Virus record (IMG/VR): IMGVR_UViG_3300033463_000003
Source of the DNA: a virus
Lineage: Duplodnaviria; Heunggongvirae; Uroviricota; Caudoviricetes
Strand: one strand, 5' to 3'
Length of the DNA stretch: 64,000 nucleotides
Below the pieces are notes generated by a model, which was not told where the DNA came from, searched no databases, and saw nothing but the letters and a program-made list of their open reading frames with translations. Both the position numbers and the translations under genes were made by a program. Positions 1,583 to 63,460 of this stretch are shown here, piece after piece; positions within the stretch are counted from its first letter, which is position 1; each line of letters opens with the position of its first letter.

Positions 1583-2010
1583 TGTTAAGAGACTACAATT
1601 CACAAGCATTTACACCAGAAGAAGTTGAGGCAGGCTTATTACAAGACCTTCTCAACTATCTTTTAGATCATAATAAAAAAGCTAAAGAACAATACTATGA
1701 TATTCATATTACTTCAGATGGCTATTGCACAATTATTGAGTGGACTGATGTTGATTATGATCAAAAATTTGGGCCAGATGGAAAGTTTGAATTTGTTCCT
1801 TATAATGGTCAAATAATGTTAGAATTTACTTTTCCAGATAATCATACAGAACTTTGTTATAATGAAGAAGACTACCAAGAAAGACTTGAAGAATTCTTAA
1901 AAGAAAATCCAGGTTGGGTAAAAACTTCTTATGGAACTTGGACTAATGATATAGAAAATGAAAAATTTAGAAAAGAACTTGAAGGAGAAGAAAATGAGTC
2001 AAGCAGATAA
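1582..2010 (+). CDS. Hypothetical protein, paralogue of 52809..53153
   Basis: Shared AGL...N.LL, DIHI and GKFEFV...PDN segments. Confidence 0.6.
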   Translation: MLRDYNSQAFTPEEVEAGLLQDLLNYLLDHNKKAKEQYYDIHITSDGYCTIIEWTDVDYDQKFGPDGKFEFVPYNGQIMLEFTFPDNHTELCYNEEDYQERLEEFLKENPGWVKTSYGTWTNDIENEKFRKELEGEENESSR

Positions 2011-12643: not shown

Positions 12644-13108
12644 ATGATTGAAATTATTAAAGCACCAAATCCAATTTTACATCAGAAGTCAGAGCCAGTT
12701 AAGCTTCCTTTAAGTCAAGAGGACAAAGCTTTACTTGATGAAATGTATAACTATTTAAAAGTTAATTCTGATATTGCTGCTGGTATAAGTGCAGTTCAAG
12801 TTGGTGTTTTAAAAAGAATGTGTGCTATTAAAACTATTATTGGTACGACAGTTCACAGTTATAAATTAGTTAACCCAAGAATTGTAAAGCATTCATCTAA
12901 GAAGTATTATTTAGAAGAAGGCTGTTTATCTGTAGACGAAGAGCATCATGAATTAATTGGCCGTTATGATGAAATTATGGTTATTGGCTATGATGCTATT
13001 ACAAATAAAAATATTACTATTAATACATCTGGTTGGCTAGCTCGACTATTACAGCATGAGATCGATCATATGGACGGAATTTTATTTACAAATAGGATTG
13101 AAGAATAA
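12644..13108 (+). CDS. def: Peptide deformylase
   Basis: GISAVQVG, EGCLS, HEIDH motifs. Confidence 0.92.
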   Translation: MIEIIKAPNPILHQKSEPVKLPLSQEDKALLDEMYNYLKVNSDIAAGISAVQVGVLKRMCAIKTIIGTTVHSYKLVNPRIVKHSSKKYYLEEGCLSVDEEHHELIGRYDEIMVIGYDAITNKNITINTSGWLARLLQHEIDHMDGILFTNRIEE

Positions 13109-13109
13109 T

Positions 13110-14426: not shown

Positions 14427-14611
14427 TGGCAAAGAAAAAAGAAAATAGCTTAAAATGGTGCTATATTGGTGAAAATAAAGATCAGGTAATGATGGTCTGT
14501 AGTAAGGAAGATTGGGAAGCTATTTGTGATATAGTTGAATGGGCTAAGAAACAGAGTATGCTACGTGAGTCTGATAATTGGAACTATTCTTATACTGCAG
14601 AAAATAGATAA
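14426..14611 (+). CDS. Hypothetical protein
   Basis: TAATG coupling. Confidence 0.5.
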   Translation: MAKKKENSLKWCYIGENKDQVMMVCSKEDWEAICDIVEWAKKQSMLRESDNWNYSYTAENR

Positions 14612-14688
14612 AATAAATAGGTTAAAAAAATGGCCACTTATTAAAAAAGCGGTCATTTTTTATTGTATAATATATTTGAGGTGTTAGA

Positions 14689-16170
14689 ATGTTTATAAAG
14701 AAAGTAGAACTAATCAAACCAATTAATTATCCTAAGGACATTCCAATGAATGAAGCTTTTGCTTATGGCCAAGATAATAGACTTTATAGAAGTTTAATTA
14801 GACTTTTTGAAGCCTTCTGGGTATATAATAAGAAAGAACTCTATTTAGTTGGGGGCGTTGTAAGAGACCTATTACTTGGCAAAGAGCCAAAAGATTATGA
14901 TTTAACAACTAATGCCACTCCAGAAGAAGTTAAAGCAATTTGTGAAGCTTTTGGATTAAAAACTTTTGACTCTGGAATTAAACATGGCACCTTAACTATT
15001 ATTGATGATTTTTATAAGCAAAGCTATGAAATTACAACTTACCGAACTGAATCTAAATATACGGATCATAGACATCCAGATAAAGTTGAGTTTGTAAGTA
15101 GCTTAGAAGAAGATTTAAAGCGCCGTGACTTCACAGTTAACTCATTTGCTTATAATCTATTAACACATGAAGTTTTAGCCTTAGAAGAGTCATTTTTCAA
15201 GGATTTAGAATATGGAATCATTAGAGCTGTTGGTGATCCAGCTGAAAGATATGAGGAAGATGCTTTAAGAATGTTACGTGCCTTACGTTTTATGGCCCAA
15301 TTAAATTTCAGCATTGAAAGATATACTTATTCAGCAATTGGTATGTGTAAAACTCTTCTTGGAAATATATCAAAAGAAAGAATCCGTGATGAATTAACCA
15401 AGATTTTATTAAGTGATAACCCTCAGATTTTAGAGCTTATTGCTTTGAATAGACTTGAAGATTATATTGGGGACTTTGAACATCCATACTTAAGTTGCAT
15501 GCTTGATTGTGAGCACCAAAACCCATGGCATTATACAGACGTTTTTCATCACACAATGGATGTAGTTAAAAGAGTGCCTAAAACATTTGAGCTTCGTTGG
15601 GCAGCACTTCTTCATGATATTGGAAAGCCTTTTGTTAAGCAATTAAAAGAAGGCACCAGAGATCATTATAGATATTTAGGCCACCAAGAAAAGTCAGCTG
15701 AAATTGCTCTTGAAATTATGGACCAACTTAAATTTTCAAATGACCAAAAAGATTTGATTTATAAGTTTGTTAAATACCATGATGATGATTTAGTTGAATG
15801 TAGAAATGCAACTTTTAAAAGAGTAGTTGTTGATATTGGCAAAGAGCACTTCAAGGATTTTATGAAACTAAGATTTGCTGATGCTATGGCTCACAGATTA
15901 ATTCACAGCACTAAATATGCCATTGAATATGTTGATAAAGTAATTGCCAGATTTGATAAGGTAATTTCTGAAGAGCAAGCCATGACTGTTAAAGATTTGG
16001 CTATTGATGGTAATGATATTCTTGCTGATGGTTTCTTACAAGGCAAAGAAATTGGTGAATGTTTAAGATGGATGCTTCAAATCGTGTTAGAGCACCCAGA
16101 ATACAATACACGTGAAAAATTATTAGAATATTTGGAGCTTTTTAAAGAAATGAGCTTCCAAAGTAGTTAA
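14689..16170 (+). CDS. cca: CCA-adding tRNA nucleotidyltransferase with HD domain
   Basis: VGGVVRD, DYD, RRDFTVN, EDALRMLRA, ERIRDE, LLHDIGK. Confidence 0.92.
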   Translation: MFIKKVELIKPINYPKDIPMNEAFAYGQDNRLYRSLIRLFEAFWVYNKKELYLVGGVVRDLLLGKEPKDYDLTTNATPEEVKAICEAFGLKTFDSGIKHGTLTIIDDFYKQSYEITTYRTESKYTDHRHPDKVEFVSSLEEDLKRRDFTVNSFAYNLLTHEVLALEESFFKDLEYGIIRAVGDPAERYEEDALRMLRALRFMAQLNFSIERYTYSAIGMCKTLLGNISKERIRDELTKILLSDNPQILELIALNRLEDYIGDFEHPYLSCMLDCEHQNPWHYTDVFHHTMDVVKRVPKTFELRWAALLHDIGKPFVKQLKEGTRDHYRYLGHQEKSAEIALEIMDQLKFSNDQKDLIYKFVKYHDDDLVECRNATFKRVVVDIGKEHFKDFMKLRFADAMAHRLIHSTKYAIEYVDKVIARFDKVISEEQAMTVKDLAIDGNDILADGFLQGKEIGECLRWMLQIVLEHPEYNTREKLLEYLELFKEMSFQSS

Positions 16171-16181
16171 AAGGAAAAAAT

Positions 16182-16700
16182 ATGAAAGTATTATTTTTAG
16201 ATATTGATGGCGTTTTAAATAGTGATAGGACCCTCTATGATGATGTTTCTTTAGAGGACGATTTAATCATGAATTTAAAGGCAATAATTGATAAAACAGG
16301 TGCAAAGATCATACTTTCTTCCTCTTGGCGCTGTATTCCTTCTGCTGTTCAAAAATTAATGGGTAAATTAGATGAGCATGATTTATATTTATCTGGATTA
16401 ACTAAGGACGGTGTTGAGGTTAGCACAGTTGAAGCTTTAGGATTTAAGCCAACTGAAAGATACACAGATACTGATTATAGTGGTAGCTGTCCAAAAGATA
16501 TTACACATGATAGAGGTGCTGAAATTGCTGTTTGGTTAGACGAGCACCAAGATAGAGTAGATAGTTTTGTTATTTTAGATGATGAAGATTATGATATTAA
16601 ACTATACTACCCAAGTCATTTAGTTTTAACAAGATACGAAACAGGTTTAACAGAGGCTAATGTTGAAGAGGCAATAAAGATATTAAATAAAGGAAAGTAA
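16182..16700 (+). CDS. HAD-family phosphatase (RNA-repair-type HAD_SAK-like)
   Basis: FLDIDGVLN, SSSWR, RG.EI..WL, FVILDD. Confidence 0.75.
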   Translation: MKVLFLDIDGVLNSDRTLYDDVSLEDDLIMNLKAIIDKTGAKIILSSSWRCIPSAVQKLMGKLDEHDLYLSGLTKDGVEVSTVEALGFKPTERYTDTDYSGSCPKDITHDRGAEIAVWLDEHQDRVDSFVILDDEDYDIKLYYPSHLVLTRYETGLTEANVEEAIKILNKGK

Positions 16701-16702
16701 TT

Positions 16703-17785
16703 ATGGAAGACAGAGAAACAAAATTTTTTATTAATCATATTGATAAATGGGATATAATGCAAAATATTAATTTTACAGAAGAAGACCAAAAGAAATTTTT
16801 AGAAGCTTTAGCAAATGCTCCTGAGGCAAATAAAGCTCTTAAAGATTTAATGAGCCCAATGTATCAAATGATTGCTGACGAAAATGAATTACGTTGGTTT
16901 TTTGATCATGTTTTAGTTAAGCCACAAGTAAATGAATCATATTCAGCTGTTTTTGTTAGCCGCCATAAGAAGCTCACAAAAGAAGAGCAAGAAGTAGTTG
17001 GCCTTACAAGAAAAGAAGCAGAATTTTTAGCAACACAAACTTTTAGACAAGCAAAATTCAAGGATGCTTTTAATATTGATGAAGAAAATAGTTGGACTTT
17101 TGATAGGTTTTTACAAAGAATTAGAAGATTTAATGTAGATAAATATGCTTATACAACTTCTAAGGGTGAACCAATTCCAACTAAAACTTTGGCTGTAATT
17201 TTCTATGTTAACCCATGTGATGATATTAAAGTTGTTAGGGAATTTGTTAATCAATACTTAGATGTTAGTCAATCAATTTCAAAAGCTATGTTAGGCGGAA
17301 AAACTTATACTGATAATTTACATGGTTATCAATGGTTTGGAAACGCTGAAAATAATCTTAAACACCTTAAAGCAAATCAAAAAGGCACAAGATATTGGAT
17401 GGATTTTGACTTAGACTGCCCAACTTGGTTTAGAGATCAAGATGGCAAAGGCGATGGCACGGGCTATTACTTCGATATGATGAAACGTGAATTAAATACT
17501 AGATTTGGAAAAGGCAATTATGTTATTGTTTCTACTTCTGGCGGCTATCATATTTTAGTTAAAACAAGTGCTATTAAGGCAAATCCGCATGATTTCTGTA
17601 AACAAATGGAAAAACTTTATAAACAAGGTGTCAAAGATGGCGAGTATCCACCATATTTAGATGAAAAAGGCGTTTGTAAGTTTGAGTGTATTGTTAATGA
17701 TAGTCAAATTCCAGGTTTACCACTTCCAGGCACATATCAATATGATAGACCAGTCGTAGTTTTAAATAAGGAGGACTTTGAATAA
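16703..17785 (+). CDS. Hypothetical protein, possibly AEP/prim-pol-like
   Basis: DFDLD and STSGGYH resemble AEP motifs I and II. Confidence 0.4.
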   Translation: MEDRETKFFINHIDKWDIMQNINFTEEDQKKFLEALANAPEANKALKDLMSPMYQMIADENELRWFFDHVLVKPQVNESYSAVFVSRHKKLTKEEQEVVGLTRKEAEFLATQTFRQAKFKDAFNIDEENSWTFDRFLQRIRRFNVDKYAYTTSKGEPIPTKTLAVIFYVNPCDDIKVVREFVNQYLDVSQSISKAMLGGKTYTDNLHGYQWFGNAENNLKHLKANQKGTRYWMDFDLDCPTWFRDQDGKGDGTGYYFDMMKRELNTRFGKGNYVIVSTSGGYHILVKTSAIKANPHDFCKQMEKLYKQGVKDGEYPPYLDEKGVCKFECIVNDSQIPGLPLPGTYQYDRPVVVLNKEDFE

Positions 17786-24603: not shown

Positions 24604-24716
24604 TTAATTAAATAGTTAAAACAATATTAATAAAACTGAATCTTAATGGCACATTTTGTGCCATTTTTTATTTATTTTTAATGTATAATATAGTAATAAG
24701 TGAGGTTTATTTATTA

Positions 24717-25223
24717 ATGATTTCAGGTATTGTATGTTGCGATAAAGCTTGGGGAATTGGAAAGAAGAATAGTTTACTCTTCAATCTTCCAGCTGATATG
24801 AGCTATTTTAAGAAAAAAACAGAGCACCATATAGTAGTAATGGGTTATAATACCTATCTTAGCCTCCCGAAAAAGTTTAGACCGCTTCCAAATAGAGTTA
24901 ATTTAATTCTTTGGGATAAAGCACCATTACCAGATTGTTTAGATGGGTGTATAGTATTTAATGATTTTAACAACTTAGTTAACTTTGTTAAAATACTTGC
25001 TGAGGAATATGAAGTATTTATTTGTGGCGGGCAAATGTTATATCATAGCTTTATTGATTTATATGATAGAGTTTATGTTACATTAGTTGATACAATTGAC
25101 CAAGAAGCAACAGCATTCTTTCCAAATTTAGATGAAGCAGGTTTTGAATGCTTCCAGGAAACAGATTGGAAAGAAGATAATGGTTATAATATTAAATTTA
25201 CAGTTTATGAGAGGGCAAGATAA
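24717..25223 (+). CDS. folA: Dihydrofolate reductase
   Basis: GIG...L.F..P.DM..F, VMG..T, RPLPNR.N, ICGG, DAFFP-like motif. Confidence 0.92.
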   Translation: MISGIVCCDKAWGIGKKNSLLFNLPADMSYFKKKTEHHIVVMGYNTYLSLPKKFRPLPNRVNLILWDKAPLPDCLDGCIVFNDFNNLVNFVKILAEEYEVFICGGQMLYHSFIDLYDRVYVTLVDTIDQEATAFFPNLDEAGFECFQETDWKEDNGYNIKFTVYERAR

Positions 25224-27012: not shown

Positions 27013-28749
27013 ATGAAGAATATTTTAGATTTAGCTGCTGAGCTAAAAATCCCTCAGGAGTATGTTTTACCATATGGCTGGGATAAAGCTAAGATTGATT
27101 TTAAATATAGAGACGAATTAAAAGATAGGCCAGATGGAAAACTTATCTTAGTTACAGCTATTACTCCAACAAAAGCAGGTGAAGGTAAAACTACAACTAC
27201 AATTGGCTTACATGATGGCTTACGTAGAATTGGCGTTAATTCACTTGCTTGTTTACGTGAACCTTCTTTAGGGCCTGTTTGGGGAATTAAAGGTGGAGCT
27301 GTTGGTGCTTTAAAATCAACCATTGTTCCAAGTGATGATATTAATTTACATTTTACAGGTGATTTTCATGCATTAACTTCTACTATTAATTTAATGGCAG
27401 CTATTATTGAAAATCATATCTGGCAGGGCAATGAATTAAATATTGATCCTGAAAGAATTGTTTGGCCAAGAGCATTAGATGTTAATGACCGTTCAATTAG
27501 AAGCATTGCCGTTAATGCTGATGGCACAGCTGGCGATGATATGGATAATAGGGGCTTGGATATTGAACTTCAAAAGCTTGACCTTAAAGGTAAAGATGAA
27601 GCTACAATAGAAAAAACTCGTGTTAGAAAAACAAATCATAAATCGGAGTTTGTTATTACAGTTGCCTCTGAACTTATGACAATTCTTACTATTTCACAAT
27701 CTGAAGAAGAGTTTATGGATAGAGTTAATAAGATTTTGGTTGCATATAACAAAGATGGTGAGCCAGTTTATTTTGGACAATTCAATTGTAGCAAAGCAAT
27801 TCTTAAAATGATGCGAAATGCAATGAATCCAAATTTAGTGCAAACTCTTGAAGAAAACCCAGTTTTAGTGCACTGCGGGCCATTTGCTAACATTTCAATT
27901 GGTGTTAACTCAATTAATGCAACAAAATTAGCACTTAAAATGTCTGATGTTGTTGTTACAGAAGCCGGATTTGGTGGTGATTTAGGAGCTGAAAAGTTCT
28001 TAGACATCAAATGTCAGCTAGCTGGAATTCATCCAAATGTTATTGTTTTAGTAGCCACCGCAAGAGCTCTTAAACTTCATGGTGGTATTAAATTTGAAGA
28101 TCTTGAAAAAGAAAATGTTGAAGCCGTTAAAGCTGGTATTTGTAACCTTGAAAAACATTATAATAATATGAAATTATATGGCGTTCCAGTTGTCGTTGCT
28201 ATTAACCGTTTTCCAAGTGATACTAATGCTGAAGTAGAAGCTATTGGTCGATGGTGTGTTGAAAACCGAGCACCTTGGGCAATTAATTCAGCTGCTTTAG
28301 ATGGAAGTGCAGGGGCAGTAAGCTTAGCTAATACTATTAAAGGCATTTTAAATAGCCAAAGCATGCCAAATTTATTTCCAGATTTTGCTGATAATTTTAA
28401 ACCATTAATTCCAATAGATAAAAAAGAACAATGGACAATAAAAGAAAAAATTGGTTATATTTGTCAACAAATTTATGGTGCTGGAAATGTAGAATATACA
28501 GAATTAGCCAACCAACAAATTAATGAGTATGAAAATCTTGGCTATAATGCATTACCAATTTGTATTTCTAAAACTCCAAATTCATTAACTGATGATGCTA
28601 AGATACTAGGTGCGCCAACAGGCTTTACGATTCATATTAGGGAAGTTAGATTATATAATGGTGCTGGGCTATTAGTTCCATTATCTGGTAGTTTATTATT
28701 AATGCCAGGTTTACCAAAAGAGCCAAGGTGTTTAGATAAGTTTAATTAA
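27013..28749 (+). CDS. fhs: Formate--tetrahydrofolate ligase
   Basis: TAITPTKAGEGKTTT, REPSLGP..GIKGGA, HFTGD.HA, VHCGPFANI, TEAGFG, MPGLP. Confidence 0.96.
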   Translation: MKNILDLAAELKIPQEYVLPYGWDKAKIDFKYRDELKDRPDGKLILVTAITPTKAGEGKTTTTIGLHDGLRRIGVNSLACLREPSLGPVWGIKGGAVGALKSTIVPSDDINLHFTGDFHALTSTINLMAAIIENHIWQGNELNIDPERIVWPRALDVNDRSIRSIAVNADGTAGDDMDNRGLDIELQKLDLKGKDEATIEKTRVRKTNHKSEFVITVASELMTILTISQSEEEFMDRVNKILVAYNKDGEPVYFGQFNCSKAILKMMRNAMNPNLVQTLEENPVLVHCGPFANISIGVNSINATKLALKMSDVVVTEAGFGGDLGAEKFLDIKCQLAGIHPNVIVLVATARALKLHGGIKFEDLEKENVEAVKAGICNLEKHYNNMKLYGVPVVVAINRFPSDTNAEVEAIGRWCVENRAPWAINSAALDGSAGAVSLANTIKGILNSQSMPNLFPDFADNFKPLIPIDKKEQWTIKEKIGYICQQIYGAGNVEYTELANQQINEYENLGYNALPICISKTPNSLTDDAKILGAPTGFTIHIREVRLYNGAGLLVPLSGSLLLMPGLPKEPRCLDKFN

Positions 28750-28898
28750 TATGGAATATAAAAAATATACTAAATGTGATTTTTGCCAATATAGAGCTGG
28801 TGGAAGATGCACTGTAAAGCCAGACTCATTTTATTGTCGTGATGCACAAAATGAATTTTATCAATGGCTTAAAGAAAGAAAACAAGGAAGGAAATAGT

Positions 28899-29684
28899 AT
28901 GCAAGTAATTAAAGAATACGTTGCTGAAAAGAAAGAAAAACTTAAAAAAGAATTAGCTGATAAAAAATTAGTTATGGTAATTGTTCAAGTTGGCCATGTT
29001 CCTGCTTCCGACCGCTATGTAAGAAATAAAATTAAAGATGCAGAAGAAGTTGGAATTGAGTGCGACCTTATCAATTTGCCAGAAACTATTTCAGAAGATG
29101 ATTTATTAGTTCAACTTCATATCTTAAATAGTAGAAGAGACGTTGATGGATATTTAGTACAATTGCCTCTTCCAAAACATATCAGTGAAGAAAAAGTTAA
29201 GCTAGCCATTGCTCCTGATAAAGATATTGATGGCTTCCATCCTTTATCAAAAACAACTCCAGCAACTCCTCTTGGAATATATAATTATTTAAAAGATATG
29301 AACTATGACTTTGTTGGTAAAAATGCTGTTGTTATTGGTCGTTCTAATATTGTTGGAAAACCAATGGCACACTTATTGCTAAAAGAAAGCTGCAATGTTA
29401 CGGTTCTTCACAGTAAAACAAAAGAAGCTGATAAAGCGTTTTATTTGGAACATGCTGACTTAATAGTATCAGCAGTTGGAAAAAGAAATATTATTACTCC
29501 AGATTATGAACTAAAGCCAACTGCCACTATTATAGATGTTGGTATAAACCAAAATGATGAAGGTAAACTTTGTGGCGATATAGAGCAAGATTTACCTGTT
29601 GCATTCCAAAGTCCAGTTCCATCTGGTGTAGGTCTTCTAACAAGAATGTCTGTTATAGATAATTTAATAGAGCTTAGTAAATAA
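28899..29684 (+). CDS. folD: Methylene-THF dehydrogenase/cyclohydrolase
   Basis: VQLPLP, KDIDGF, IGRSNIVGKP, DVGIN, PVPSGVG; ATG of MQVIK preceded by RBS. Confidence 0.94.
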   Translation: MQVIKEYVAEKKEKLKKELADKKLVMVIVQVGHVPASDRYVRNKIKDAEEVGIECDLINLPETISEDDLLVQLHILNSRRDVDGYLVQLPLPKHISEEKVKLAIAPDKDIDGFHPLSKTTPATPLGIYNYLKDMNYDFVGKNAVVIGRSNIVGKPMAHLLLKESCNVTVLHSKTKEADKAFYLEHADLIVSAVGKRNIITPDYELKPTATIIDVGINQNDEGKLCGDIEQDLPVAFQSPVPSGVGLLTRMSVIDNLIELSK

Positions 29685-31984: not shown

Positions 31985-32036
31985 TTGCTAAATTAAATAG
32001 ATGCTCAGGGGTGATTTGGCTTTTAAATCTGCCTCA

Positions 32037-32091
32037 GAAACTATACTTATTTCTACAGATAAACTTTGAAAATTTAGCCGCTAGTTAGTTC
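32037..32091 (+). ncRNA. Conserved carrier element copy F (no tRNA cargo)
   Basis: GAAACTATACTTATTTCTA...CTAGTTAGTTC; AACTA/TAGTT is a compensatory variant of the family stem; nested in ATGCTC/GAGCAT stem after a GCTAAATT motif. Confidence 0.65.
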
Positions 32092-32186: not shown

Positions 32187-32220
32187 AATATCGCTCAAAA
32201 AAATGAGCGATATTTTATTT
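32187..32220 (+). terminator. Intrinsic terminator overlapping a competing 15-bp helix
   Basis: AATATCGCTC/GAGCGATATT + U-rich tail. Confidence 0.7.
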
Positions 32221-32289
32221 TTATACCAATTTTAAGAAAAATATTATTGTATAATAAAATGAAGTATTGTAAAGATAGGAGCAAGTAAG

Positions 32290-55031: not shown

Positions 55032-55097
55032 TAAGTTTATATTAATTTAAAAAATATAAGCTAAATTAAATGAGTTTGAGTAAATCAAACTTACATA

Positions 55098-55166
55098 GTG
55101 AAAAGCACACCCGTAGAAATGCGGGGTCGCAAAACTATAGGGTCTTATTAAAGATAGCCAGTTGCC
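55098..55166 (+). promoter_or_regulatory. GEMM-I (c-di-GMP-I family) riboswitch aptamer, A20 variant
   Basis: G-CACAC-CCGTA-GAAA-TGCGG-GGTCGC-AAAACTATAGGGTCT...AGATAGCCAGTTGCC fits P2 (GAAA tetraloop), P3 and junction pattern. Confidence 0.85.
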
Positions 55167-55252
55167 TCAATCAAAGTATTTTGGTTGGGGCTTTATTTTT
55201 AATAAGATAGCCAGCTGCCTCAATCGTTCTATACGGTTGGGCATTTTATTTT
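55164..55252 (+). terminator. Two tandem intrinsic terminators, each preceded by a copy of the aptamer 3' end
   Basis: GCCTCAATC..GGTTGGGGC-TTTATTTTT, then GATAGCCAGCTGCCTCAATC..GGTTGGGC-ATTTTATTTT. Confidence 0.75.
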
Positions 55253-55273: not shown

Positions 55274-55975
55274 TTGGATAGAGATATTGCATTAAAGTAT
55301 GTCAGACGAAAAAAACGCAATAAAAGAGTCGCAATAATTTCAGGCATTAGCACAATAATTCTTACAATATTCATAATTATTGCCTTCAGTCTGATTCATG
55401 TTGATAGATTTACTATCACAACAAGTGAAGAGCCTGAGCTGTGCTTAACACTTAATCAAAAAGAGTTTACAACTAAACTTACAGCTCCTCCACTTCTTAA
55501 AGCAACAGATACTCAATATACTTACGTAATTGAAAATCTGGATGAAACTGAAGGGAGTAAAAACACAGATTATTATTTCGCTTATTCCTTCTATTTAGGT
55601 GGCCAGGGTAAATCAGAGAGTATAAACTATAACTTAGCTTTATCGCTTGATAAATACTCAAATAACATTGAAGAAGCAATAAGAGTGATGATAATAAGGA
55701 ATGGTATAAAAGAAGTTTATGCTAAACCAGACCAAAATGGAGAAGCTAAACCAATCTATTACGGTGAAACACATGAAAGTGCACCAGAACAAATTGGAAT
55801 AACAACACCATTTAGATCAAATAAAAACATTATAGTTGAAGCGTACGAAATCAAACCTGGCGACTTTGATAAATACACAATTGTAATGTGGATCGACGGT
55901 TGGGAATCCGTCAACGAAATGAAGGGCGGGGTGTTCTCAGCCAATATAAAATTCTCAACTCATTCAATTAATTAA
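55274..55975 (+). CDS. Membrane-anchored extracellular protein
   Basis: Basic N-terminus plus one TM helix; TTG start with GGAGG RBS. Confidence 0.65.
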   Translation: MDRDIALKYVRRKKRNKRVAIISGISTIILTIFIIIAFSLIHVDRFTITTSEEPELCLTLNQKEFTTKLTAPPLLKATDTQYTYVIENLDETEGSKNTDYYFAYSFYLGGQGKSESINYNLALSLDKYSNNIEEAIRVMIIRNGIKEVYAKPDQNGEAKPIYYGETHESAPEQIGITTPFRSNKNIIVEAYEIKPGDFDKYTIVMWIDGWESVNEMKGGVFSANIKFSTHSIN

Positions 55976-60181: not shown

Positions 60182-60230
60182 ATTTTAAAAAAGATATTTA
60201 CAATTATAAAAAATAGTTGTATATTATATA

Positions 60231-60476
60231 TGTAATCACCTGTGTCGGGGTTCCACAGCTATCTTGGCTGTCATTGCCTGCCCAGCTGCCTGAGCTAAAT
60301 GTATACTAGCTCATATAACCTGGTGTCATTGCGGGCTAAGTGTGGAATAACGAGCGTTAGCCAACCTAGTCGGAGGGTCAGATCGTAATCACCTGACGTT
60401 AAATCAAGGATACTCCGTGAATAAGTAGTTGGAGAAGAGTAGGATACAAATAGCAGAGCGCCCGCAGAAGATTACA
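60231..60476 (+). ncRNA. Candidate ~245-nt structured ncRNA
   Basis: GC-rich island closed by TGTAATC/GATTACA; internal stems GCGGG/CCCGC, CCAAC/GTTGG, CGGAG/CTCCG, GAGCTA/TAGCTC, TTCCACA/TGTGGAA; sigma70-like promoter upstream. Confidence 0.6.
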
Positions 60477-60548
60477 GCAATTCTTAAAAAAGAATGTGCT
60501 AAATTAAAAGTAAGCAAGTTAGCAAGGCTTACAACAGCTAATTTGCAT

Positions 60549-60605
60549 GAGCCTATACTTATTTCTATTTTTAAAGAGATCATGAAGAAAAAGGTTAGTT
60601 AGGCC
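60549..60605 (+). ncRNA. Conserved carrier element copy A (short cargo)
   Basis: GAGCCTATACTTATTTCT...GTTAGTTAGGCC. Confidence 0.7.
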
Positions 60606-60636
60606 AATAATTTTAAGAAGAAGGAGTTAAAAGAGT

Positions 60637-60717
60637 ATGTTAAGAAATGTTACTGTTAACGTTAGACCTACAGCAACAGCCAAACCAGCATTTGGTACTT
60701 TTGAACATGCTTGTTAA
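60637..60717 (+). CDS. Small 26-aa ORF
   Basis: AAGGAG RBS; followed by a terminator at about 60748-60786. Confidence 0.35.
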   Translation: MLRNVTVNVRPTATAKPAFGTFEHAC

Positions 60718-60786
60718 CTTCTAAACCTCTTATTCTTAAACAAATAAGCCGTGAGTGTTAATGAGCATTCACGGTTTTTATTTTTT

Positions 60787-60862
60787 GGGGGTGTAGCTCA
60801 ATTGGGAGAGCATCTGATTTGCATTCAGAGGGTTGGGAGATCGTGCCTCCTCACTTCCACCA
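60787..60862 (+). tRNA. tRNA-Ala(TGC)
   Basis: Cloverleaf, G3.U70, CCA; atypical T-loop ATCGTGC. Confidence 0.85.
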
Positions 60863-60866
60863 TTAT

Positions 60867-60941
60867 GGGCCGATAGTTTAATTGGGAAAACACCCGCCCT
60901 GCAAGCGGGAGTTACGGGTTCAATTCCCGCCGTGTCCACCA
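60867..60941 (+). tRNA. tRNA-Ala(TGC), imperfect acceptor stem
   Basis: CCCGC-CC-TGC-AA-GCGGG, CCA. Confidence 0.75.
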
Positions 60942-60946
60942 TTAAT

Positions 60947-61021
60947 GCCCCTGTAGTATAATGGCTATTACAGTTGTCTTGTAAACATCAGAAGGCCGTT
61001 CGATTCGACCCTGGGGCACCA
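60947..61021 (+). tRNA. tRNA-Thr(TGT)
   Basis: Cloverleaf, CT-TGT-AA loop, CCA. Confidence 0.85.
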
Positions 61022-61026
61022 TATAT

Positions 61027-61103
61027 CCGGGATTGGCTCAGTTTGGTAGAGCACTTGATTTGGGATCAAGGGGTCAAAAGTTCAAATCTTTTATCTCGGG
61101 CCA
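61027..61103 (+). tRNA. tRNA-Pro(TGG)
   Basis: CTTGA-TT-TGG-GA-TCAAG, CCA. Confidence 0.85.
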
Positions 61104-61108
61104 TAAAT

Positions 61109-61184
61109 GGGGCCATAGCTCAATTGGGAGAGCGCCACATTAGCATTGTGGAGGTTGCGAGATCGTCCCTCGTTGGTTCCACCA
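61109..61184 (+). tRNA. tRNA-Ala(AGC)
   Basis: CCACA-TT-AGC-AT-TGTGG, G3.U70, CCA; T-loop ATCGTCC. Confidence 0.85.
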
Positions 61185-61189
61185 TTATA

Positions 61190-61307
61190 GAACCTGTGCT
61201 TATTTCTAATAGGGCAAGCAGGTTGTCGCTGGTTCGAATCCAGCCTTCCCAACCATTATCGGGAAGTAGCTCAGTTGGCAGAGCACCCGCAAAATATTAG
61301 CCAGGTC
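61190..61307 (+). ncRNA. Carrier element copy B enclosing a circularly permuted tRNA (anticodon degenerate, possibly GGC)
   Basis: 3' half (T-arm, CTTCCCA-ACCA, ending 61255) precedes 5' half (CGGGAAG, D-arm, CCCGC; 61260-61290); closing stem ACCTG/CAGGT. Confidence 0.8.
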
Positions 61308-61312
61308 AAATT

Positions 61313-61388
61313 GCACTCTTAGCTCAGCTGGGAGAGCGACTGCTCGACGTGCAGTAGGTCATAGGTCCGAGCCCTATAGAGTGCACCA
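61313..61388 (+). tRNA. tRNA-Val(GAC) with C33
   Basis: ACTGC-TC-GAC-GT-GCAGT, CCA. Confidence 0.75.
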
Positions 61389-61559
61389 TTAAATTCATAG
61401 AAGGAGAAAAAGATTATGATGAATTTAACCAAAAAGATTAAAAATATAAGAAAAACCAAAAGAATTGGTTTCTTTCATCATGGCTTAATTAGTTAGTAAA
61501 AAACTTAAATTAATAGTTTATGCTGGGTAGTTAAGTCTGCTCAGCATTTTTATTAAATT

Positions 61560-61636
61560 GCCCCCATAACTCAACTGGATAGAGTAACGGTCTTCTAAAC
61601 CGTAAGTTGAAGGTCCGAGTCCTTCTGGGGGCGCCA
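61560..61636 (+). tRNA. tRNA-Arg(TCT)
   Basis: ACGGT-CT-TCT-AA-ACCGT, CCA. Confidence 0.9.
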
Positions 61637-61639
61637 TTA

Positions 61640-61697
61640 GAGCCTATACTTATTTCTAGCTTCAAGCAAACAACTTTTAATTGTTCATAGTTAGGCC
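61640..61697 (+). ncRNA. Carrier element copy C (two mini-hairpins as cargo)
   Basis: GAGCCTATACTTATTTCTA...ATAGTTAGGCC, spaced between two tRNAs. Confidence 0.7.
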
Positions 61698-61701
61698 ATA
61701 T

Positions 61702-61779
61702 GGGTCCATAACTCAGTTGGATTAGAGTACGAAACTTTTAATTTCGGAGTCGAGAGTTCGAGTCTCTCTGGACCCACCA
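61702..61779 (+). tRNA. tRNA-Lys(TTT)
   Basis: CGAAA-CT-TTT-AA-TTTCG, CCA. Confidence 0.88.
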
Positions 61780-61783
61780 ATAT

Positions 61784-61861
61784 GCACCCTTAGCTCAGTT
61801 GGCTAGCAGCACTACACTTTTAATGTAGGGGTCCTGGGTTCGAGTCCCAGAGGGTGCACCA
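61784..61861 (+). tRNA. tRNA-Lys(TTT)
   Basis: CTACA-CT-TTT-AA-TGTAG, CCA. Confidence 0.88.
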
Positions 61862-61864
61862 TAT

Positions 61865-61941
61865 ACCTCCTTAACTCAACTGGTTAGAGTACTTGCCTCT
61901 TAAGCATGGAGTTCTGGGTTCGAGTCCCAGAGGAGGTACCA
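61865..61941 (+). tRNA. tRNA-Lys(CTT)
   Basis: CT-CTT-AA loop, CCA. Confidence 0.88.
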
Positions 61942-61971
61942 TTAAAATAAATATATTGTATAATATATTAT

Positions 61972-62047
61972 GCCGGCTTAGCTCAGCTGTTAGAGCAACG
62001 CACTAGTAATGCGTAGGTCGGGGGTTAGAGTCCCTCAGCCGGCACCA
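61972..62047 (+). tRNA. tRNA-Thr(AGT)
   Basis: ACGCA-CT-AGT-AA-TGCGT, CCA. Confidence 0.85.
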
Positions 62048-62050
62048 TCA

Positions 62051-62158
62051 GAGCCCATGCTTATTTCTTTCGGCTTCTAACCGGGTGGTCGTTGGTTCGA
62101 ATCCAACCGTTCCAGTTGGAACGTAGCTCAGTGGGAGAGCACCTTATTTAGCTGGGCC
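62051..62158 (+). ncRNA. Carrier element copy D enclosing circularly permuted tRNA-Arg(TCT)
   Basis: 62071-62115 = positions 29-73; 62117-62143 = positions 1-28; rejoined CC|CGG-CT-TCT-AA-CCGGG; acceptor TGGAACG/CGTTCCA perfect; no CCA; closing stem GCCCA/TGGGC. Confidence 0.88.
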
Positions 62159-62211
62159 AAAACTAAAAAACTATATTATTTTAAGATTTTTCAATGTATA
62201 ATATAGTGCAT

Positions 62212-62286
62212 CCTCCTGTAGCTCAACAGTTAGAGCGGGCGCCTTATAAGCGTCATACCTTGGTGCGACTCCAGGCAGGAGGACCA
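62212..62286 (+). tRNA. tRNA-Ile(TAT)
   Basis: GGCGC-CT-TAT-AA-GCGTC, CCTCCTG/CAGGAGG, CCA. Confidence 0.8.
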
Positions 62287-62524
62287 ATAATAAAAAATAT
62301 ATGCTAAATTAAAATGCGAGGAGAGAACAAAATGATGATTAGAAGAAGTTATCAATTGAGCCAATTATCAGGTTTATGTGGTCATAACCAATTTTTGTTT
62401 TACTCCAATCGCGATTAAATAGAATAAGCTTAAAGTATAATATATAATTTAATGAGCAGCGATTGGAAAAATTGTTGCTCATTTTATTTACAAAGCAAAA
62501 ATTCTATGGTATAATATTAAATAC

Positions 62525-62599
62525 AGGGAAGTAGCCAAGTGGTAAGGCATGAGACTTTGACTCTCACATTCGAAGGTTCGACCCCTTCCTTCCCTGCCA
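62525..62599 (+). tRNA. tRNA-Gln(TTG)
   Basis: TGAGA-CT-TTG-AC-TCTCA, CCA. Confidence 0.88.
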
Positions 62600-62601
62600 A
62601 T

Positions 62602-62686
62602 GCTCTGGTGGTGGAACTGGCATACACATGGCACTTAAAATGCCACGCCGTAAGGATTGAGAGTTCAAATCTCTCCCGGAGCACCA
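62602..62686 (+). tRNA. tRNA-Leu(TAA)
   Basis: TGGCA-CT-TAA-AA-TGCCA, long variable arm, CCA. Confidence 0.9.
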
Positions 62687-62690
62687 TTAT

Positions 62691-62767
62691 GCTCCTCTAG
62701 CCCAACTGGCAGAGGCAATAAGCTCAAAACTTATTCAGTCTGAGTTCGAATCTCAGGGGGAGTACCA
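62691..62767 (+). tRNA. tRNA-Leu(CAA) with short variable loop
   Basis: ATAAG-CT-CAA-AA-CTTAT, CCA. Confidence 0.8.
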
Positions 62768-62770
62768 TAA

Positions 62771-62891
62771 GAGCCTATGCTTATTTCTTAAGGACTGAAA
62801 ATCCGCGTGTAGGTGGTTCAACTCCATCCCTTCCCGCCAAATATTTGGGAAGTGTAGCTCACCGGTAGAGCAGCGAACTATTAGCTAGGCC
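62771..62891 (+). ncRNA. Carrier element copy E enclosing circularly permuted tRNA-Phe(GAA)
   Basis: 62792-62839 = positions 29 to CCA; 62847-62874 = positions 1-28; rejoined GC|GGA-CT-GAA-AA-TCCGC; closing stem GCCTA/TAGGC. Confidence 0.85.
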
Positions 62892-63191
62892 AAAAAATAA
62901 AAAATTTCAGAAATATATTTACAATTAATTAAAAATGTTGTATAATATATGTGAGCGTTAAAAATATACGCTAAATTATAATGGCGCAAAGCTAGGAAGG
63001 AAAAGATTATGCAAAAACTATCTATCATGTCCCTTAATCGTGAACATAGTGATTCAGTATATTTCGGTTGCTGGAATATTTTTGCTACCATCGGATCATC
63101 TAGTTTTGAGCAGGTTAATGAATAAATAAATTAAAAACATTAACAAAAAATGAAATTAGGTGGTCTGAATAAGATCACCTTTTATTTTACT

Positions 63192-63282: not shown

Positions 63283-63358
63283 GTGGACGTGAATCTGACG
63301 GTTTAGATGCTAGTCTGTGAAACTAGATTACTGAGTTCAACTCTCAGACATCCACCCA
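63283..63358 (+). tRNA. tRNA-His(GTG)
   Basis: CTAGT-CT-GTG-AA-ACTAG; G-1:C73; CCA. Confidence 0.85.
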
Positions 63359-63362
63359 AAAT

Positions 63363-63452
63363 GGTCTATTAGCTCAGTCTGGTAGAGCGGCCGACCAAAG
63401 TGTCGGTGACAAACAGCGCGCGAGTGCATTGGTTCAAATCCAATATAGACCA
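63363..63452 (+). tRNA. Atypical tRNA-like RNA (6-nt anticodon loop, 20-nt extra region, no CCA)
   Basis: Perfect acceptor GGTCTAT/ATAGACC, D- and T-arms; GCCGAC-CAAAGT-GTCGGT arm plus GCGC-GCGA-GTGC hairpin. Confidence 0.6.
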
Positions 63453-63460
63453 TCGTATAT

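What the first reader, a model, noticed from the sequence alone, without database searches (positions are those of the whole stretch)
60549..62891. Multi-copy covarying small-RNA 'carrier' element, some copies holding circularly permuted tRNAs
Seen in sequence: six copies (32037-32091, 60549-60605, 61190-61307, 61640-61697, 62051-62158, 62771-62891) share a 5' box GRRCYYR-TRCTTATTTCT and a 3' box TAG-Y-YRGKYC. The closing stem covaries four ways (GCCTA/TAGGC, ACCTG/CAGGT, GCCCA/TGGGC, AACTA/TAGTT) while the URCUUAUUU bulge is nearly invariant. The cargo varies: short hairpins in three copies, a complete tRNA in 3'-half-then-5'-half order in three. Four copies start 3-5 nt after a tRNA CCA, spaced like ordinary members of the tRNA operon. 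Established knowledge: permuted tRNA genes are known from algae and some archaea (BHB endonuclease route), permuted tRNA-like domains from YrlA Y RNAs, and two-piece tmRNA. I do not recognise this flanking motif from any of those. Inference: an undescribed RNA module, such as a protein-binding handle, cleavage/ligation signal or ribozyme, that presents or matures permuted tRNAs or tRNA decoys.
Basis: partly seen in the sequence, partly recalled or inferred. Interest (0 to 1): 0.95.

Follow-up and report, generated by a model that had tools for sequence, protein, structure and literature searches.

The report
Phage handle RNAs carrying tRNA mimics
A rumen jumbo phage encodes six small RNAs that share one conserved, covarying "handle" helix and display pieces of tRNA (anticodon hairpins or whole, circularly permuted tRNA bodies); in relatives the same RNAs always flank an uncharacterised TerD-domain protein gene, so this looks like an undescribed counterpart of the Ro60/Y-RNA particle.

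Summary
A covariance model of the handle finds exactly the six stated copies in the window and 83 more in related uncultured phage contigs. I found 71 unique elements with 17 different closing stems. None pairs when the stem is shuffled.

The handle matches no Rfam 15 family. Only the tRNA-like cargo gives sub-threshold YrlA hits.

The cargo is modular:
- anticodon-stem-loop mimics, whose stems covary while the loops stay like those of real tRNAs;
- a D-like hairpin plus an anticodon arm;
- whole tRNAs permuted at position 28/29;
- tRNA bodies with no anticodon loop;
- normal-order tRNAs;
- non-tRNA folds.

Maturation into working tRNAs is unlikely. There is no splicing endonuclease, the handle sits at varying positions, and many cargos cannot form a tRNA.

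The Ro60 motif and the Ro60 gene are both absent. Instead, a roughly 660-aa protein (helical repeats plus a TerD-like domain, no Pfam family) is directly flanked by handle RNAs. This holds in 17 phage contigs and in all 7 distant homologue loci I fetched, two of them bacterial. In those distant loci the handle sequence has diverged too.

Best reading: a new Y-RNA-like ribonucleoprotein that presents tRNA mimics, plausibly as decoys or adaptors in tRNA-damage conflicts. Expression, binding and function are untested. Earlier notes from this scan describe the same RNA-protein pairing on other DNA.

The parts
32037..32091 (+). Copy 1. A short handle RNA (stem AACUA/UAGUU) outside the tRNA array, with an AU-rich cargo that is not clearly anticodon-like.
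   Evidence: R1 51.9 bits; sequence; MFE keeps the handle.
31986..31997 (+). TGCTAAATTAAA box about 40 nt upstream of copy 1, probably the phage late promoter.
   Evidence: Read. The same box lies upstream of copy 2. The promoter reading comes from earlier scan note e1-1850645; I did not test it.
32187..32224 (+). GC-stem hairpin followed by a U run, about 100 nt after copy 1. It is a likely terminator, which would make copy 1 its own short transcription unit.
   Evidence: Read directly. Inference.
60497..60508 (+). TGCTAAATTAAA box upstream of copy 2. A GUAAGC...GCUUAC 5' hairpin follows it.
   Evidence: The same 5' hairpin type precedes the isolated elements in relatives.
60549..60605 (+). 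Copy 2. A short handle RNA (stem GCCUA/UAGGC) with an AU-rich cargo. A 26-codon ORF and a terminator follow it.
   Evidence: R1 57.1 bits.
61190..61307 (+). Copy 3. The handle (ACCUG/CAGGU) takes the place of the anticodon loop of a permuted tRNA-like body. Order: variable loop, T arm, acceptor 3' strand with ACCA, UUAU linker, acceptor 5' strand, D arm.
   Evidence: R1 30.8 bits; YrlA 37.7 bits at 61221-61287; fold; near-identical orthologue at L043:968-1087.
61640..61697 (+). Copy 4. Handle, then a 3-bp D-like hairpin, an A26-like base, and an anticodon-arm mimic at 61669-61685 with loop CUUUUAA (Lys UUU).
   Evidence: R1 58.2 bits. In alignment A2 all 5 anticodon-stem pairs covary across 10 relatives.
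62051..62158 (+). Copy 5. A whole tRNA-Arg(UCU)-like body permuted at 28/29. Parts: anticodon hairpin 62071-62083, T arm 62091-62107, acceptor stem closed by a 4-nt loop and lacking CCA 62108-62123, D arm 62126-62140.
   Evidence: R1 32 bits; YrlA 41.7 bits over the full model; ARAGORN on the doubled cargo gives tRNA-Arg(tct). The orthologue L043:3004-3115 has anticodon UGU and a different acceptor stem.
62771..62891 (+). Copy 6. A whole tRNA-Phe(GAA)-like body permuted near 28/29. The acceptor 3' strand ends in GCCA and a 7-nt linker precedes the 5' strand.
   Evidence: R1 37.1 bits; YrlA 22.7 bits; ARAGORN on the doubled cargo gives tRNA-Phe(gaa).

Best explanation
These six elements belong to a new family of small non-coding RNAs built like Y RNAs. 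Each has a constant handle helix that joins the 5' and 3' ends, and a variable cargo that imitates part or all of a tRNA.

Transcription: they are made with the phage tRNA array or from their own promoters.

Shown:
- The family exists.
- The handle structure is under selection.
- The cargo anticodon hairpins are under selection.
- A gene for a ~660-aa protein (helical repeats plus a TerD-like domain) is linked to the handle RNAs.

Inferred:
- The invariant handle bases (A2, U8, C10-U18, A-G) are the docking site of that protein. Relatives encode it between handle RNAs. It is not inside this 64-kb window.
- Cargos whose acceptor linker carries CCA are probably opened by RNase P and 3' trimming, as happens to Mycobacterium smegmatis YrlA. 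That would give two-piece tRNA-like molecules.
- The particle presents tRNA look-alikes to enzymes that act on tRNA. The most likely roles are decoy or competitive substrate for host anticodon nucleases, or adaptor for tRNA repair and quality control. This fits a phage that also carries tRNA arrays and RNA-repair genes.
For: Family and structure:
- R1 finds the 6 window copies and 83 copies in related contigs.
- 71 of 132 distinct 5' boxes have a perfect 3' partner, against 0 with shuffled stems. There are 17 distinct stems.
- Position -1 is A in 68 of 71 elements, whereas tRNAs in the window have T at -1 in 19 of 21.

Cargo is selected tRNA mimicry:
- 24 of 38 short unique cargos hold a stem of at least 4 bp with a 7-nt YU-NNN-R-N loop. 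Shuffles give 1.4 +/- 1.2.
- All 5 anticodon-stem pairs covary while the loop stays fixed.
- Doubled cargos read as Arg, Phe, Ser, Asn, Lys and Thr tRNAs.
- The permuted order matches YrlA.
- In L044:10895-11072 a complete short element is nested in the acceptor linker. The linker therefore behaves like an intergenic spacer.

Protein link:
- The ~660-aa gene has handle RNAs on both sides in 17 contigs, at 48-100% protein identity.
- All 7 distant homologue loci have 1-5 handle elements directly upstream. Two of these loci are bacterial chromosomal contexts.
- In those loci the handle has diverged: mostly CUUACUUC (L120-L122, L125, L126), with CUUAUUUC kept in L123 and L124, plus AGCUA or CCUA 5' flanks. 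The cargo types are the same.

Context:
- The window holds a CCA-adding enzyme, a HAD_SAK_2 RNA-repair phosphatase and a ligase-like gene.
- HAD_SAK_2 is in 4 of 5 related records, and RtcB sits inside the array of the fifth.
- Precedent: YrlA is cut by RNase P and receives CCA (PMC4201824).
Against: - No expression or processing data exist.
- The protein gene is not in this window, and the rest of this phage genome is not available.
- The protein has no recognised RNA-binding domain. Its similarity to Ro60 is only weak structural likeness, at noise level for helical repeats.
- Gene adjacency can also mean cis-regulation of the protein gene. In relatives the upstream element lies between a promoter and a terminator-like hairpin.
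- Window copies 1 and 2 have no clear tRNA-like cargo.
- No anticodon nuclease of the unknown host is identified, so the decoy role is conjecture.
Confidence: 0.5

Rival explanations
1. Cis-acting cassette only. On this view the handle is a processing, stability or attenuation module. It would punctuate tRNA-array transcripts and act as an operator in the leader of the TerD-domain protein gene. The tRNA-like cargos would be leftovers of tRNA gene duplication with no trans function.
For: - Isolated elements lie between a promoter and a terminator-like hairpin, just before the ribosome-binding site of the protein gene.
- The -1 A and the A-rich trailer suggest defined cleavage sites.
- Elements are spaced like tRNAs in the array.
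Against: - Anticodon-mimic stems covary while the 7-nt loops are kept, so the cargo is itself selected.
- Many copies lie kilobases from the protein gene, in tRNA arrays.
- L124 elements have their own promoters and terminators, as sRNA genes do.
- Nine invariant single-stranded bases are more than a stability helix needs.
Confidence: 0.17
2. Genuine Y RNAs (YrlA/YrlB class) that bind a Ro60 (Rsr) protein supplied by the host.
For: - The tRNA-like module has the same permuted order as YrlA, and YrlA gives sub-threshold hits of 41.7, 37.7 and 22.7 bits.
- Long and short versions share one stem, as YrlA and YrlB do (PMC4201824).
- In one relative, RtcB is embedded among the elements, which recalls the rsr-yrlBA-rtcBA operon.
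Against: - All hits fall below the gathering score of 69 bits.
- The Ro60 recognition motif GNCGAAN0-1G is absent. The matching handle positions are the freely covarying stem.
- TROVE is absent from 5 related phage records, 3 of them complete, and from every window ORF of at least 90 aa.
- A different protein is the conserved neighbour.
Confidence: 0.07
3. Permuted or split tRNA genes. The handle would be cut out and the ends ligated through a circular intermediate, and the acceptor linker then opened, yielding working tRNAs.
For: - Removing the handle from copies 5 and 6, and from six relatives, restores a 76-nt cloverleaf with a normal anticodon arm.
- Some acceptor linkers carry ACCA or GCCA.
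- One relative has RtcB in the array.
- The phage encodes a CCA-adding enzyme.
Against: - There is no tRNA-intron endonuclease.
- The handle's two 1-nt bulges lie on one strand, so it is not a bulge-helix-bulge motif.
- RtcB is in only 1 of 5 genomes.
- The same handle sits at 28/29, in place of the anticodon loop, outside the acceptor ends of normal-order tRNAs, and on bare hairpins and non-tRNA folds.
- Ordinary tRNAs for Arg-UCU, Phe-GAA, Lys-UUU and Pro-UGG are in the same array.
- Orthologues differ in anticodon (UCU against UGU) on one body.
- Copy 5 has no CCA and a closed acceptor stem.
Confidence: 0.07
4. A self-cleaving or self-ligating ribozyme, or the ends of a small mobile element that has captured tRNA fragments.
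For: - About 15 invariant bases lie around an internal loop.
- The junction bases are conserved (-1 A, G1, terminal C).
- The element occurs in many copies with varied contents.
Against: - No Rfam ribozyme matches.
- The 3' side of the loop is not conserved.
- There are no target-site duplications and no transposase.
- Copies are orthologous and syntenic between phages rather than scattered.
- Only 2 true hits, both in one MAG, turned up among 185,579 species genomes for the type-A pattern.
Confidence: 0.03

Closest known systems
YrlA / YrlB bacterial and phage Y RNAs with Ro60 (Rsr) (Rfam RF02553; Chen et al. 2014, PMC4201824)
   Same: - The 5' and 3' ends pair into a stem with conserved unpaired bases.
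- The distal module is a tRNA mimic in the order T arm, closed acceptor stem, D arm.
- Long and short paralogues share the stem.
- The RNA genes flank the gene of the presumed partner protein.
- They lie close to RNA-repair genes.
- M. smegmatis YrlA is opened by RNase P and receives CCA, which parallels the CCA-plus-linker cargos here.
   Different: - The handle sequence differs and lacks the GNCGAAN0-1G motif.
- There is no TROVE protein. The neighbour is a helical-repeat plus TerD-like protein with no Pfam family.
- Many cargos are bare anticodon-arm mimics, or keep a full anticodon arm beside the handle. YrlA has neither.
- There are up to about a dozen copies per genome, embedded in tRNA arrays.
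Circularly permuted tRNA genes of Cyanidioschyzon merolae and some archaea (bulge-helix-bulge endonuclease plus ligase route; recalled from established knowledge, reviewed in PMC4090602)
   Same: The 3' part of a tRNA is encoded upstream of the 5' part. The leader and trailer pair with each other.
   Different: - There is no BHB geometry and no EndA homologue.
- This is a bacterial virus.
- The same leader/trailer pair also carries non-tRNA cargos.
- Normal tRNAs make these copies redundant.
Two-piece (permuted) tmRNA (Rfam RF04321 and relatives)
   Same: A permuted gene order in which the acceptor/T-arm piece comes first and is released by tRNA end-processing.
   Different: There is no mRNA-like tag reading frame and no match above noise (16.6 bits against a gathering score of 47, elsewhere in the array). 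A D arm and an anticodon arm are present.
Phage-encoded nuclease-resistant tRNAs and RNA decoys (for example the T5 tRNA-Lys that neutralises PARIS, PMC11464382; RNA anti-CRISPRs, recalled from memory)
   Same: Phage small RNAs in or near tRNA arrays that would counter host systems acting on the anticodon loop.
   Different: Those are full decoding tRNAs or CRISPR-repeat mimics. Here the RNAs are non-decoding mimics on a common handle. No defence target is known for them.
ROOL and GOLLD large RNAs of phage tRNA regions (Rfam RF03087)
   Same: Structured RNAs of unknown function lying beside phage tRNA genes. A ROOL RNA lies 400 nt upstream of type-B handle RNAs in L120.
   Different: They are unrelated in size, sequence and structure. 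There is no ROOL in this window.

Membership tests
YrlA (Rfam RF02553) | Score at or above the curated gathering threshold of 69 bits | tested here: not met
   Best scores are 41.7 bits (62057-62173), 37.7 and 22.7 bits. The short copies give no hit at all.
YrlA (Rfam RF02553) | GNCGAAN0-1G Ro60-recognition motif on the 5' strand of the stem (PMC4201824) | tested here: not met
   The 5' strand reads G-A-N5-U-R-CUUAUUUCU. The positions that would align with the motif are the variable, covarying stem.
YrlA (Rfam RF02553) | tRNA-like module in the order T arm, closed acceptor stem, D arm, set inside a terminal stem | tested here: met
   Copies 3, 5 and 6. The cmscan alignment covers the T arm, acceptor hairpin and D arm; see also the folds.
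YrlA (Rfam RF02553) | Encoded next to a Ro60/TROVE gene | tested here: not met
   PF05731 is absent from 5 related phage records, 3 of them at least 96% complete, while the control genomes gave hits. It is also absent from every window ORF of at least 90 aa. The rest of this phage genome could not be searched.
Permuted tRNA genes matured by the BHB route | Leader and trailer form a bulge-helix-bulge motif (two 3-nt bulges on opposite strands, 4 bp apart) | tested here: not met
   The handle has two 1-nt bulges (A2 and U8) on the same strand, 5 bp apart.
Permuted tRNA genes matured by the BHB route | A tRNA-splicing endonuclease (PF01974) is available | tested here: not met
   0 of 5 related phage records have it, while controls were positive in 4 archaea. 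The host is unknown.
Permuted tRNA genes matured by the BHB route | Joining the ends restores a complete tRNA | tested here: inconclusive
   This holds for copies 5 and 6 and six relatives. It fails for the anticodon-less, hairpin-only and non-tRNA cargos that sit on the same handle.
Ro60 / TROVE (for the linked ~660-aa protein) | Sequence match to PF05731 or to a solved Ro60 structure | tested here: not met
   No Pfam family for 3 full-length members. A profile search against PDB sequences gave nothing relevant.
Ro60 / TROVE (for the linked ~660-aa protein) | HEAT-like helical ring fold of the TROVE domain | tested here: inconclusive
   The N-terminal model has pLDDT 85.5. VIA-align lists three Ro60 entries with the longest alignments: 9l5y_B Z 6.7 over 204 aa, 1yvp_A Z 6.1 over 152 aa, 2nvo_A Z 5.8 over 237 aa. 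That Z range is noise for helical repeats. Foldseek and the Atlas show no TROVE.
TerD domain (PF02342; for the C-terminus of the linked protein) | TerD beta-sandwich fold | tested here: met
   Residues 427-586 align to 2qz7_B with Z 14.8, rmsd 2.4 over 144 aa, and to 2kxt with Z 13.1. Pfam itself gives no sequence hit.
New 'handle RNA' family (defined here) | G1-C closing pair, bulged A2, 5 covarying pairs, bulged U8, R9-Y/C10-G/U11-A, 5' UAUUUCU, 3' A-G | tested here: met
   All six window copies meet it. 71 unique relatives also meet it.

The most novel reading that the evidence does not exclude
The handle RNAs and the TerD-domain protein form a previously unknown ribonucleoprotein class, found in gut and rumen phages and in bacteria. 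The protein holds a universal handle, and the RNA carries an exchangeable tRNA part as a programmable bait. The phage would use a set of anticodon-arm baits (Lys, Pro, Cys, Ser, Thr, Arg, Phe and others) to capture or jam host anticodon nucleases or tRNA-modifying enzymes. Copies driven by late promoters might even be packaged for the next infection.
Probability: 0.25. Interest if true: 0.95.

Novelty: new variant of a known kind. Interest (0 to 1): 0.85.

Why it matters
Y RNAs with Ro60 are the only known bacterial particles that pair a protein-binding stem with a tRNA mimic, and their role is still debated.

A second, unrelated handle-and-protein pair with the same design would show that presenting a tRNA look-alike on a handle is a general strategy. 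This pair is abundant in rumen and gut phages and is also found in bacteria.

The cargos here are unusually explicit: bare anticodon arms of named tRNAs, and whole permuted tRNAs. That gives direct hypotheses to test about which tRNA-directed enzymes are targeted.

It would also:
- explain unannotated gaps in phage tRNA arrays;
- give a first lead on the function of a large uncharacterised protein family (over 1,300 representative clusters);
- warn annotators that these permuted tRNAs are probably not decoding tRNAs.

Tried and rejected
- **Expression data.** No RNA holder was listed for the region. DNA holders are bovine gut metagenomes.
- **Rfam.** Nothing on the handle at the gathering or E-value thresholds, in the window, in a four-element cluster of a relative or in the type-B loci.
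- **Cultured phages.** Only tRNA-level DNA matches. The protein gave weak hits to its TerD part only. No isolate or host was found.
- **Whole genome.** Not held for this window.
- **Bacterial genomes.** The type-A pattern gave 3 loci. Two are real, on phage-like contigs of one Bacteroidales MAG. One, in Algoriphagus, is chance because the stem does not pair.
- **IMG/VR scan.** About half of the 80 hits to the 16-mer were chance matches without a 3' box.
- **Splicing and repair enzymes.** No EndA. RtcB in one genome only. HAD_SAK_2 is common but not adjacent to the elements.
- **Window ORFs.** PHROGs and Pfam named no RNA-binding partner.
- **Antisense targets.** No exact complement of the RCTTATTTCT box (AGAAATAAGY) occurs in the window.
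- **The 275-nt GC-richer stretch upstream of copy 2.** It has no Rfam hit and no homologue in the fetched loci.
- **A 551-aa 'conserved ORF' cluster.** This was an antisense artefact overlapping the 660-aa gene.
- **Anticodon-less cargos.** ARAGORN calls on them after trimming (for example 'Ala-GGC' for copy 3) came from trying 88 trims, so I do not trust them.
- **Ro60 likeness of the protein.** Only weak VIA-align rows. Foldseek, the Atlas and a PDB sequence profile gave nothing.
- **Literature.** Seven searches found no description of this motif or pairing.

Full report
**1.

The six elements lie at the stated coordinates, all on the + strand. The exact word RCTTATTTCT occurs six times in the window, only in these copies.

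Each element folds with the same terminal helix:
- G1 pairs with the last C.
- A2 is bulged.
- Positions 3-7 form five pairs.
- U8 is bulged.
- R9-Y, C10-G and U11-A follow.
- Then comes single-stranded UAUUUCU on the 5' side.

I built a covariance model of this handle (R1) from 25 short relatives. It finds exactly these six in 64 kb, at 30.8-58.2 bits. The next hit scores 9 bits.

Four copies begin 3-5 nt after a tRNA CCA.

**2. It is a real, widespread family**

A 16-nt pattern scan of IMG/VR, followed by R1, gave 83 further hits in about 45 loci. These come from uncultured phage contigs of up to 233 kb. My own scan lists 109 instances, 71 of them unique.

The set used for the pair counts was chosen by pairing, so I also made an unbiased count. 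Of 132 distinct 5' boxes in the fetched loci, 71 have a fully complementary 3' box within 200 nt. With the 5-nt stem shuffled, none does. There are 17 different stems.

Position -1 is A in 68 of 71 elements, and the trailer is A-rich. The window's tRNAs have T at -1 in 19 of 21 cases. The ends are therefore probably defined differently from tRNA 5' ends.

The type-A pattern is nearly absent from 185,579 species genomes. It gave two true hits, both on phage-like contigs of one MAG.

The DNA is held by bovine gut metagenome runs. The window itself looks like part of a jumbo phage. It carries PolA, DnaB, primase, RecA-like and clamp-loader genes, folate and thymidylate enzymes, a CCA-adding enzyme, a HAD_SAK_2 phosphatase and a ligase-like protein.

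**3. What the cargo is**

The cargo is modular and almost always drawn from tRNA.

(a) *Bare anticodon-arm mimics.*
- 24 of 38 short unique cargos hold a stem of at least 4 bp with a 7-nt loop of the form Y-U-NNN-R-N. Shuffles give 1.4 +/- 1.2.
- The loops equal real anticodon loops: CUUUUAA (Lys), UUUGGGA/U (Pro), CUGCAAA (Cys), and also Ser, Thr and Leu.

(b) *A D-like hairpin, an A26-like base and an anticodon arm.* Window copy 4 is of this type. In an alignment of ten such elements all five anticodon-stem pairs covary while the loop is kept. This selection was not imposed by my search.

(c) *Whole tRNAs circularly permuted in the 5' strand of the anticodon stem, near 28/29.*
- Window copies 5 (Arg UCU) and 6 (Phe GAA) are of this type.
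- ARAGORN run on doubled cargos recovers 76-nt tRNAs for Arg, Phe, Ser, Asn, Lys and Thr.

(d) *Permuted tRNA bodies in which the handle replaces the anticodon loop.* Window copy 3 is of this type.

(e) *Normal-order tRNA-like cargos held inside the handle,* at L029:2393-2503 and L066:801-905.

(f) *Cargos of about 100 nt that are not tRNA-like and match no Rfam family*.

In L044:10895-11072 a complete short element sits inside the acceptor linker of a permuted tRNA. Its spacing is that of neighbouring genes in an array. The linker is therefore probably removed by ordinary tRNA end-processing.

Window copies 1 and 2 have AU-rich cargos that I could not assign.

**4. Why these are probably not tRNA genes awaiting splicing**

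- The handle has two single-base bulges on one strand, not a bulge-helix-bulge.
- No tRNA-intron endonuclease is present in five related phage records.
- RtcB is in only one of them.
- One handle occurs at 28/29, in the anticodon-loop position, outside the acceptor ends, and on hairpins that can never be tRNAs.
- Normal tRNAs for the same anticodons are in the same array.
- The orthologue of copy 5 in a close relative keeps the handle, anticodon stem and T arm. Its anticodon is UGU instead of UCU, and its acceptor stem is entirely different.
- Copy 5 has no CCA and a closed acceptor stem.

**5. Relation to Y RNAs**

Similarities:
- The tRNA-like cargos have the same permuted order as YrlA, and the Rfam YrlA model aligns to the T arm, closed acceptor and D arm. 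The scores of 41.7, 37.7 and 22.7 bits are all below the gathering score of 69.
- Chen et al. 2014 (PMC4201824) show that M. smegmatis YrlA is cut by RNase P and gains CCA. That is a precedent for the CCA-plus-linker cargos here.

Differences:
- The same paper defines the Ro60 recognition motif as GNCGAAN0-1G on the 5' strand. The handle has nothing like it. The corresponding positions vary freely.
- TROVE is absent from five related records, three of them essentially complete.
- TROVE is also absent from all window ORFs of at least 90 aa.

These RNAs work like Y RNAs in design but are not members of that family.

**6. A candidate partner protein**

I clustered the ORFs around the elements, reading TGA as Trp because these phages are recoded. 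One ~660-aa protein appeared in 17 contigs at 48-100% identity. It always had a short handle RNA just upstream and more handle RNAs just downstream.

In relatives, the upstream element lies between a promoter with a 5' hairpin and a terminator-like hairpin, just ahead of the ribosome-binding site.

What the protein looks like:
- It has no Pfam family, and its only PHROG match has unknown function.
- It has more than 500 close unnamed homologues.
- A profile search finds 1,314 representative clusters.
- AlphaFold models show a helical-repeat domain and a C-terminal TerD-like beta-sandwich. The TerD match to 2qz7_B has Z 14.8.

I then fetched seven distant homologues at random levels of similarity. 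All seven genes are directly preceded by one to five handle elements. Two lie in bacterial chromosomal contexts:
- L124 sits among glycosidases, a class-I tRNA synthetase, RsmF and CdaA.
- L126 sits next to RecG.

In these loci the handle itself has diverged:
- Most carry a 'type B' form: AGCUA or CCUA, a 6-nt stem, CUUACUUC, then N-A-G, the complementary stem, then AAUAU or GAUAU. It has no U8/R9.
- L123 and L124 keep CUUAUUUC.

The cargos are the same kinds: Cys, Pro and Asn anticodon arms, a normal-order Ile-like tRNA, and a permuted T arm plus closed acceptor stem.

An RNA-gene pairing that survives this much divergence, while the RNA motif changes along with the protein, is the strongest evidence here for a functional pair. 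The protein gene is not inside this window. The rest of this genome is not available.

The protein's likeness to Ro60 is inconclusive. Three Ro60 structures give the longest structural alignments to the helical domain, but Z is 5.8-6.7, within the noise for helical repeats. Foldseek, the Atlas and sequence profiles show nothing.

**7. Mechanism, with the basis of each step**

Shown:
- There is a conserved RNA family with a covarying handle and invariant unpaired bases.
- The cargo anticodon arms are under selection.
- The family is linked to the TerD-domain protein gene across phages and bacteria.
- It is co-located with tRNA arrays, and the genomes carry RNA-repair genes. One relative has RtcB inside the array.

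Inferred:
- The protein docks on the handle.
- Linkers that carry CCA are opened by RNase P and 3' processing.
- The particle offers tRNA look-alikes to tRNA-directed enzymes.

I favour decoys for anticodon nucleases, or adaptors for tRNA repair and surveillance, because jumbo phages carry tRNA arrays and repair enzymes for exactly such conflicts (PMC7824862). No target enzyme is known here and no expression data exist.

The main rival is a purely cis-acting processing or attenuation cassette.

**8. Prior notes from this scan**

After I had found the protein link, a look-up showed that earlier notes on other genomes reached the same pairing. These are e1-5428032, e1-5414868, e1-5372281 and e1-5433131. 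They agree with my result but are not independent experimental support.

What this window adds:
- the clearest set of permuted whole-tRNA cargos;
- the classification of cargos as anticodon-arm mimics;
- a nested element in a relative contig;
- the contrast in the -1 base between elements and tRNAs.

**9. Verdict**

- The 'matures permuted tRNAs' and ribozyme readings are not supported.
- I found no description of this family in Rfam 15 or in the searchable literature.

Noticed in passing
window 55094-55169 (+): A c-di-GMP-I (GEMM-I) riboswitch aptamer scoring 59 bits, above the gathering score, in a phage genome just upstream of ORF 55274-55975.
   Followed up: no
window 60226-60500 (+): A GC-richer stretch of about 275 nt behind a sigma-70-like promoter, with an internal GTAATCACCTG repeat. 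It lies directly upstream of copy 2. It has no long ORF, no Rfam hit and no homologue in the fetched loci. It may be another structured RNA.
   Followed up: partly
window 13056-17785 (+): A cluster that looks like RNA repair. It holds an ATP-dependent ligase-like protein, a CCA-adding enzyme with an HD domain (14689-16170), a HAD_SAK_2 phosphatase (16182-16700) and an unassigned 360-aa ORF. A peptide deformylase lies just upstream.
   Followed up: partly
window 63362-63454 (+): A 90-93-nt tRNA-like gene that ARAGORN cannot assign (two-base 'anticodon') but Rfam scores at 48 bits. It may carry an insertion or intron. Two further tRNAs (60867-60938, 63284-63355) are seen only by Rfam.
   Followed up: no
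window 60637-60717, 61417-61506, 62333-62428, 63009-63125 (+): Four small ORFs of 26-38 codons with good Shine-Dalgarno sites are interspersed in the tRNA array. TGCTAAATT(A/T)(A/T)AA boxes precede three of them (not 61417) and terminators follow.
   Followed up: no
L120:1041-1655: A ROOL RNA (RF03087, 290.8 bits) lies about 400 nt upstream of three type-B handle RNAs and the TerD-domain protein gene, with tRNAs in between.
   Followed up: no
L044:10895-11072: A complete 54-nt handle RNA with a Pro-like anticodon arm is nested inside the acceptor linker of a permuted tRNA-like handle RNA.
   Followed up: yes
L010:550-650 and equivalents in L011, L016, L019, L024, L001: The terminator-like hairpin between the leader handle RNA and the TerD-domain gene has a conserved UUUUGGU at the 5' side of its loop. 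This hints at a further conserved RNA feature or an attenuator.
   Followed up: no
L018:11043-11374, L038:9859-10221, L082:3352-3697, L010:10133-10384: A conserved tandem cluster of four handle RNAs, each with a different closing stem (GCUUG, GCCUA, GCUCA/G, ACCUA). Two of them carry cargos of about 70-100 nt that are not tRNA-like and have no known family.
   Followed up: partly
L018:11250-11303 and L043:1661-1725: Two anticodon-arm mimics have A instead of the universal U at loop position 2 (UAUGGGA and CAUUUAA). Such a change would be expected to disturb the U-turn.
   Followed up: no
window 1958-2839, 24681-25223, 27013-28749, 28839-29684: The phage carries thymidylate synthase, dihydrofolate reductase, formate-tetrahydrofolate ligase and FolD. 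Together these make an unusually complete one-carbon and thymidylate module.
   Followed up: no
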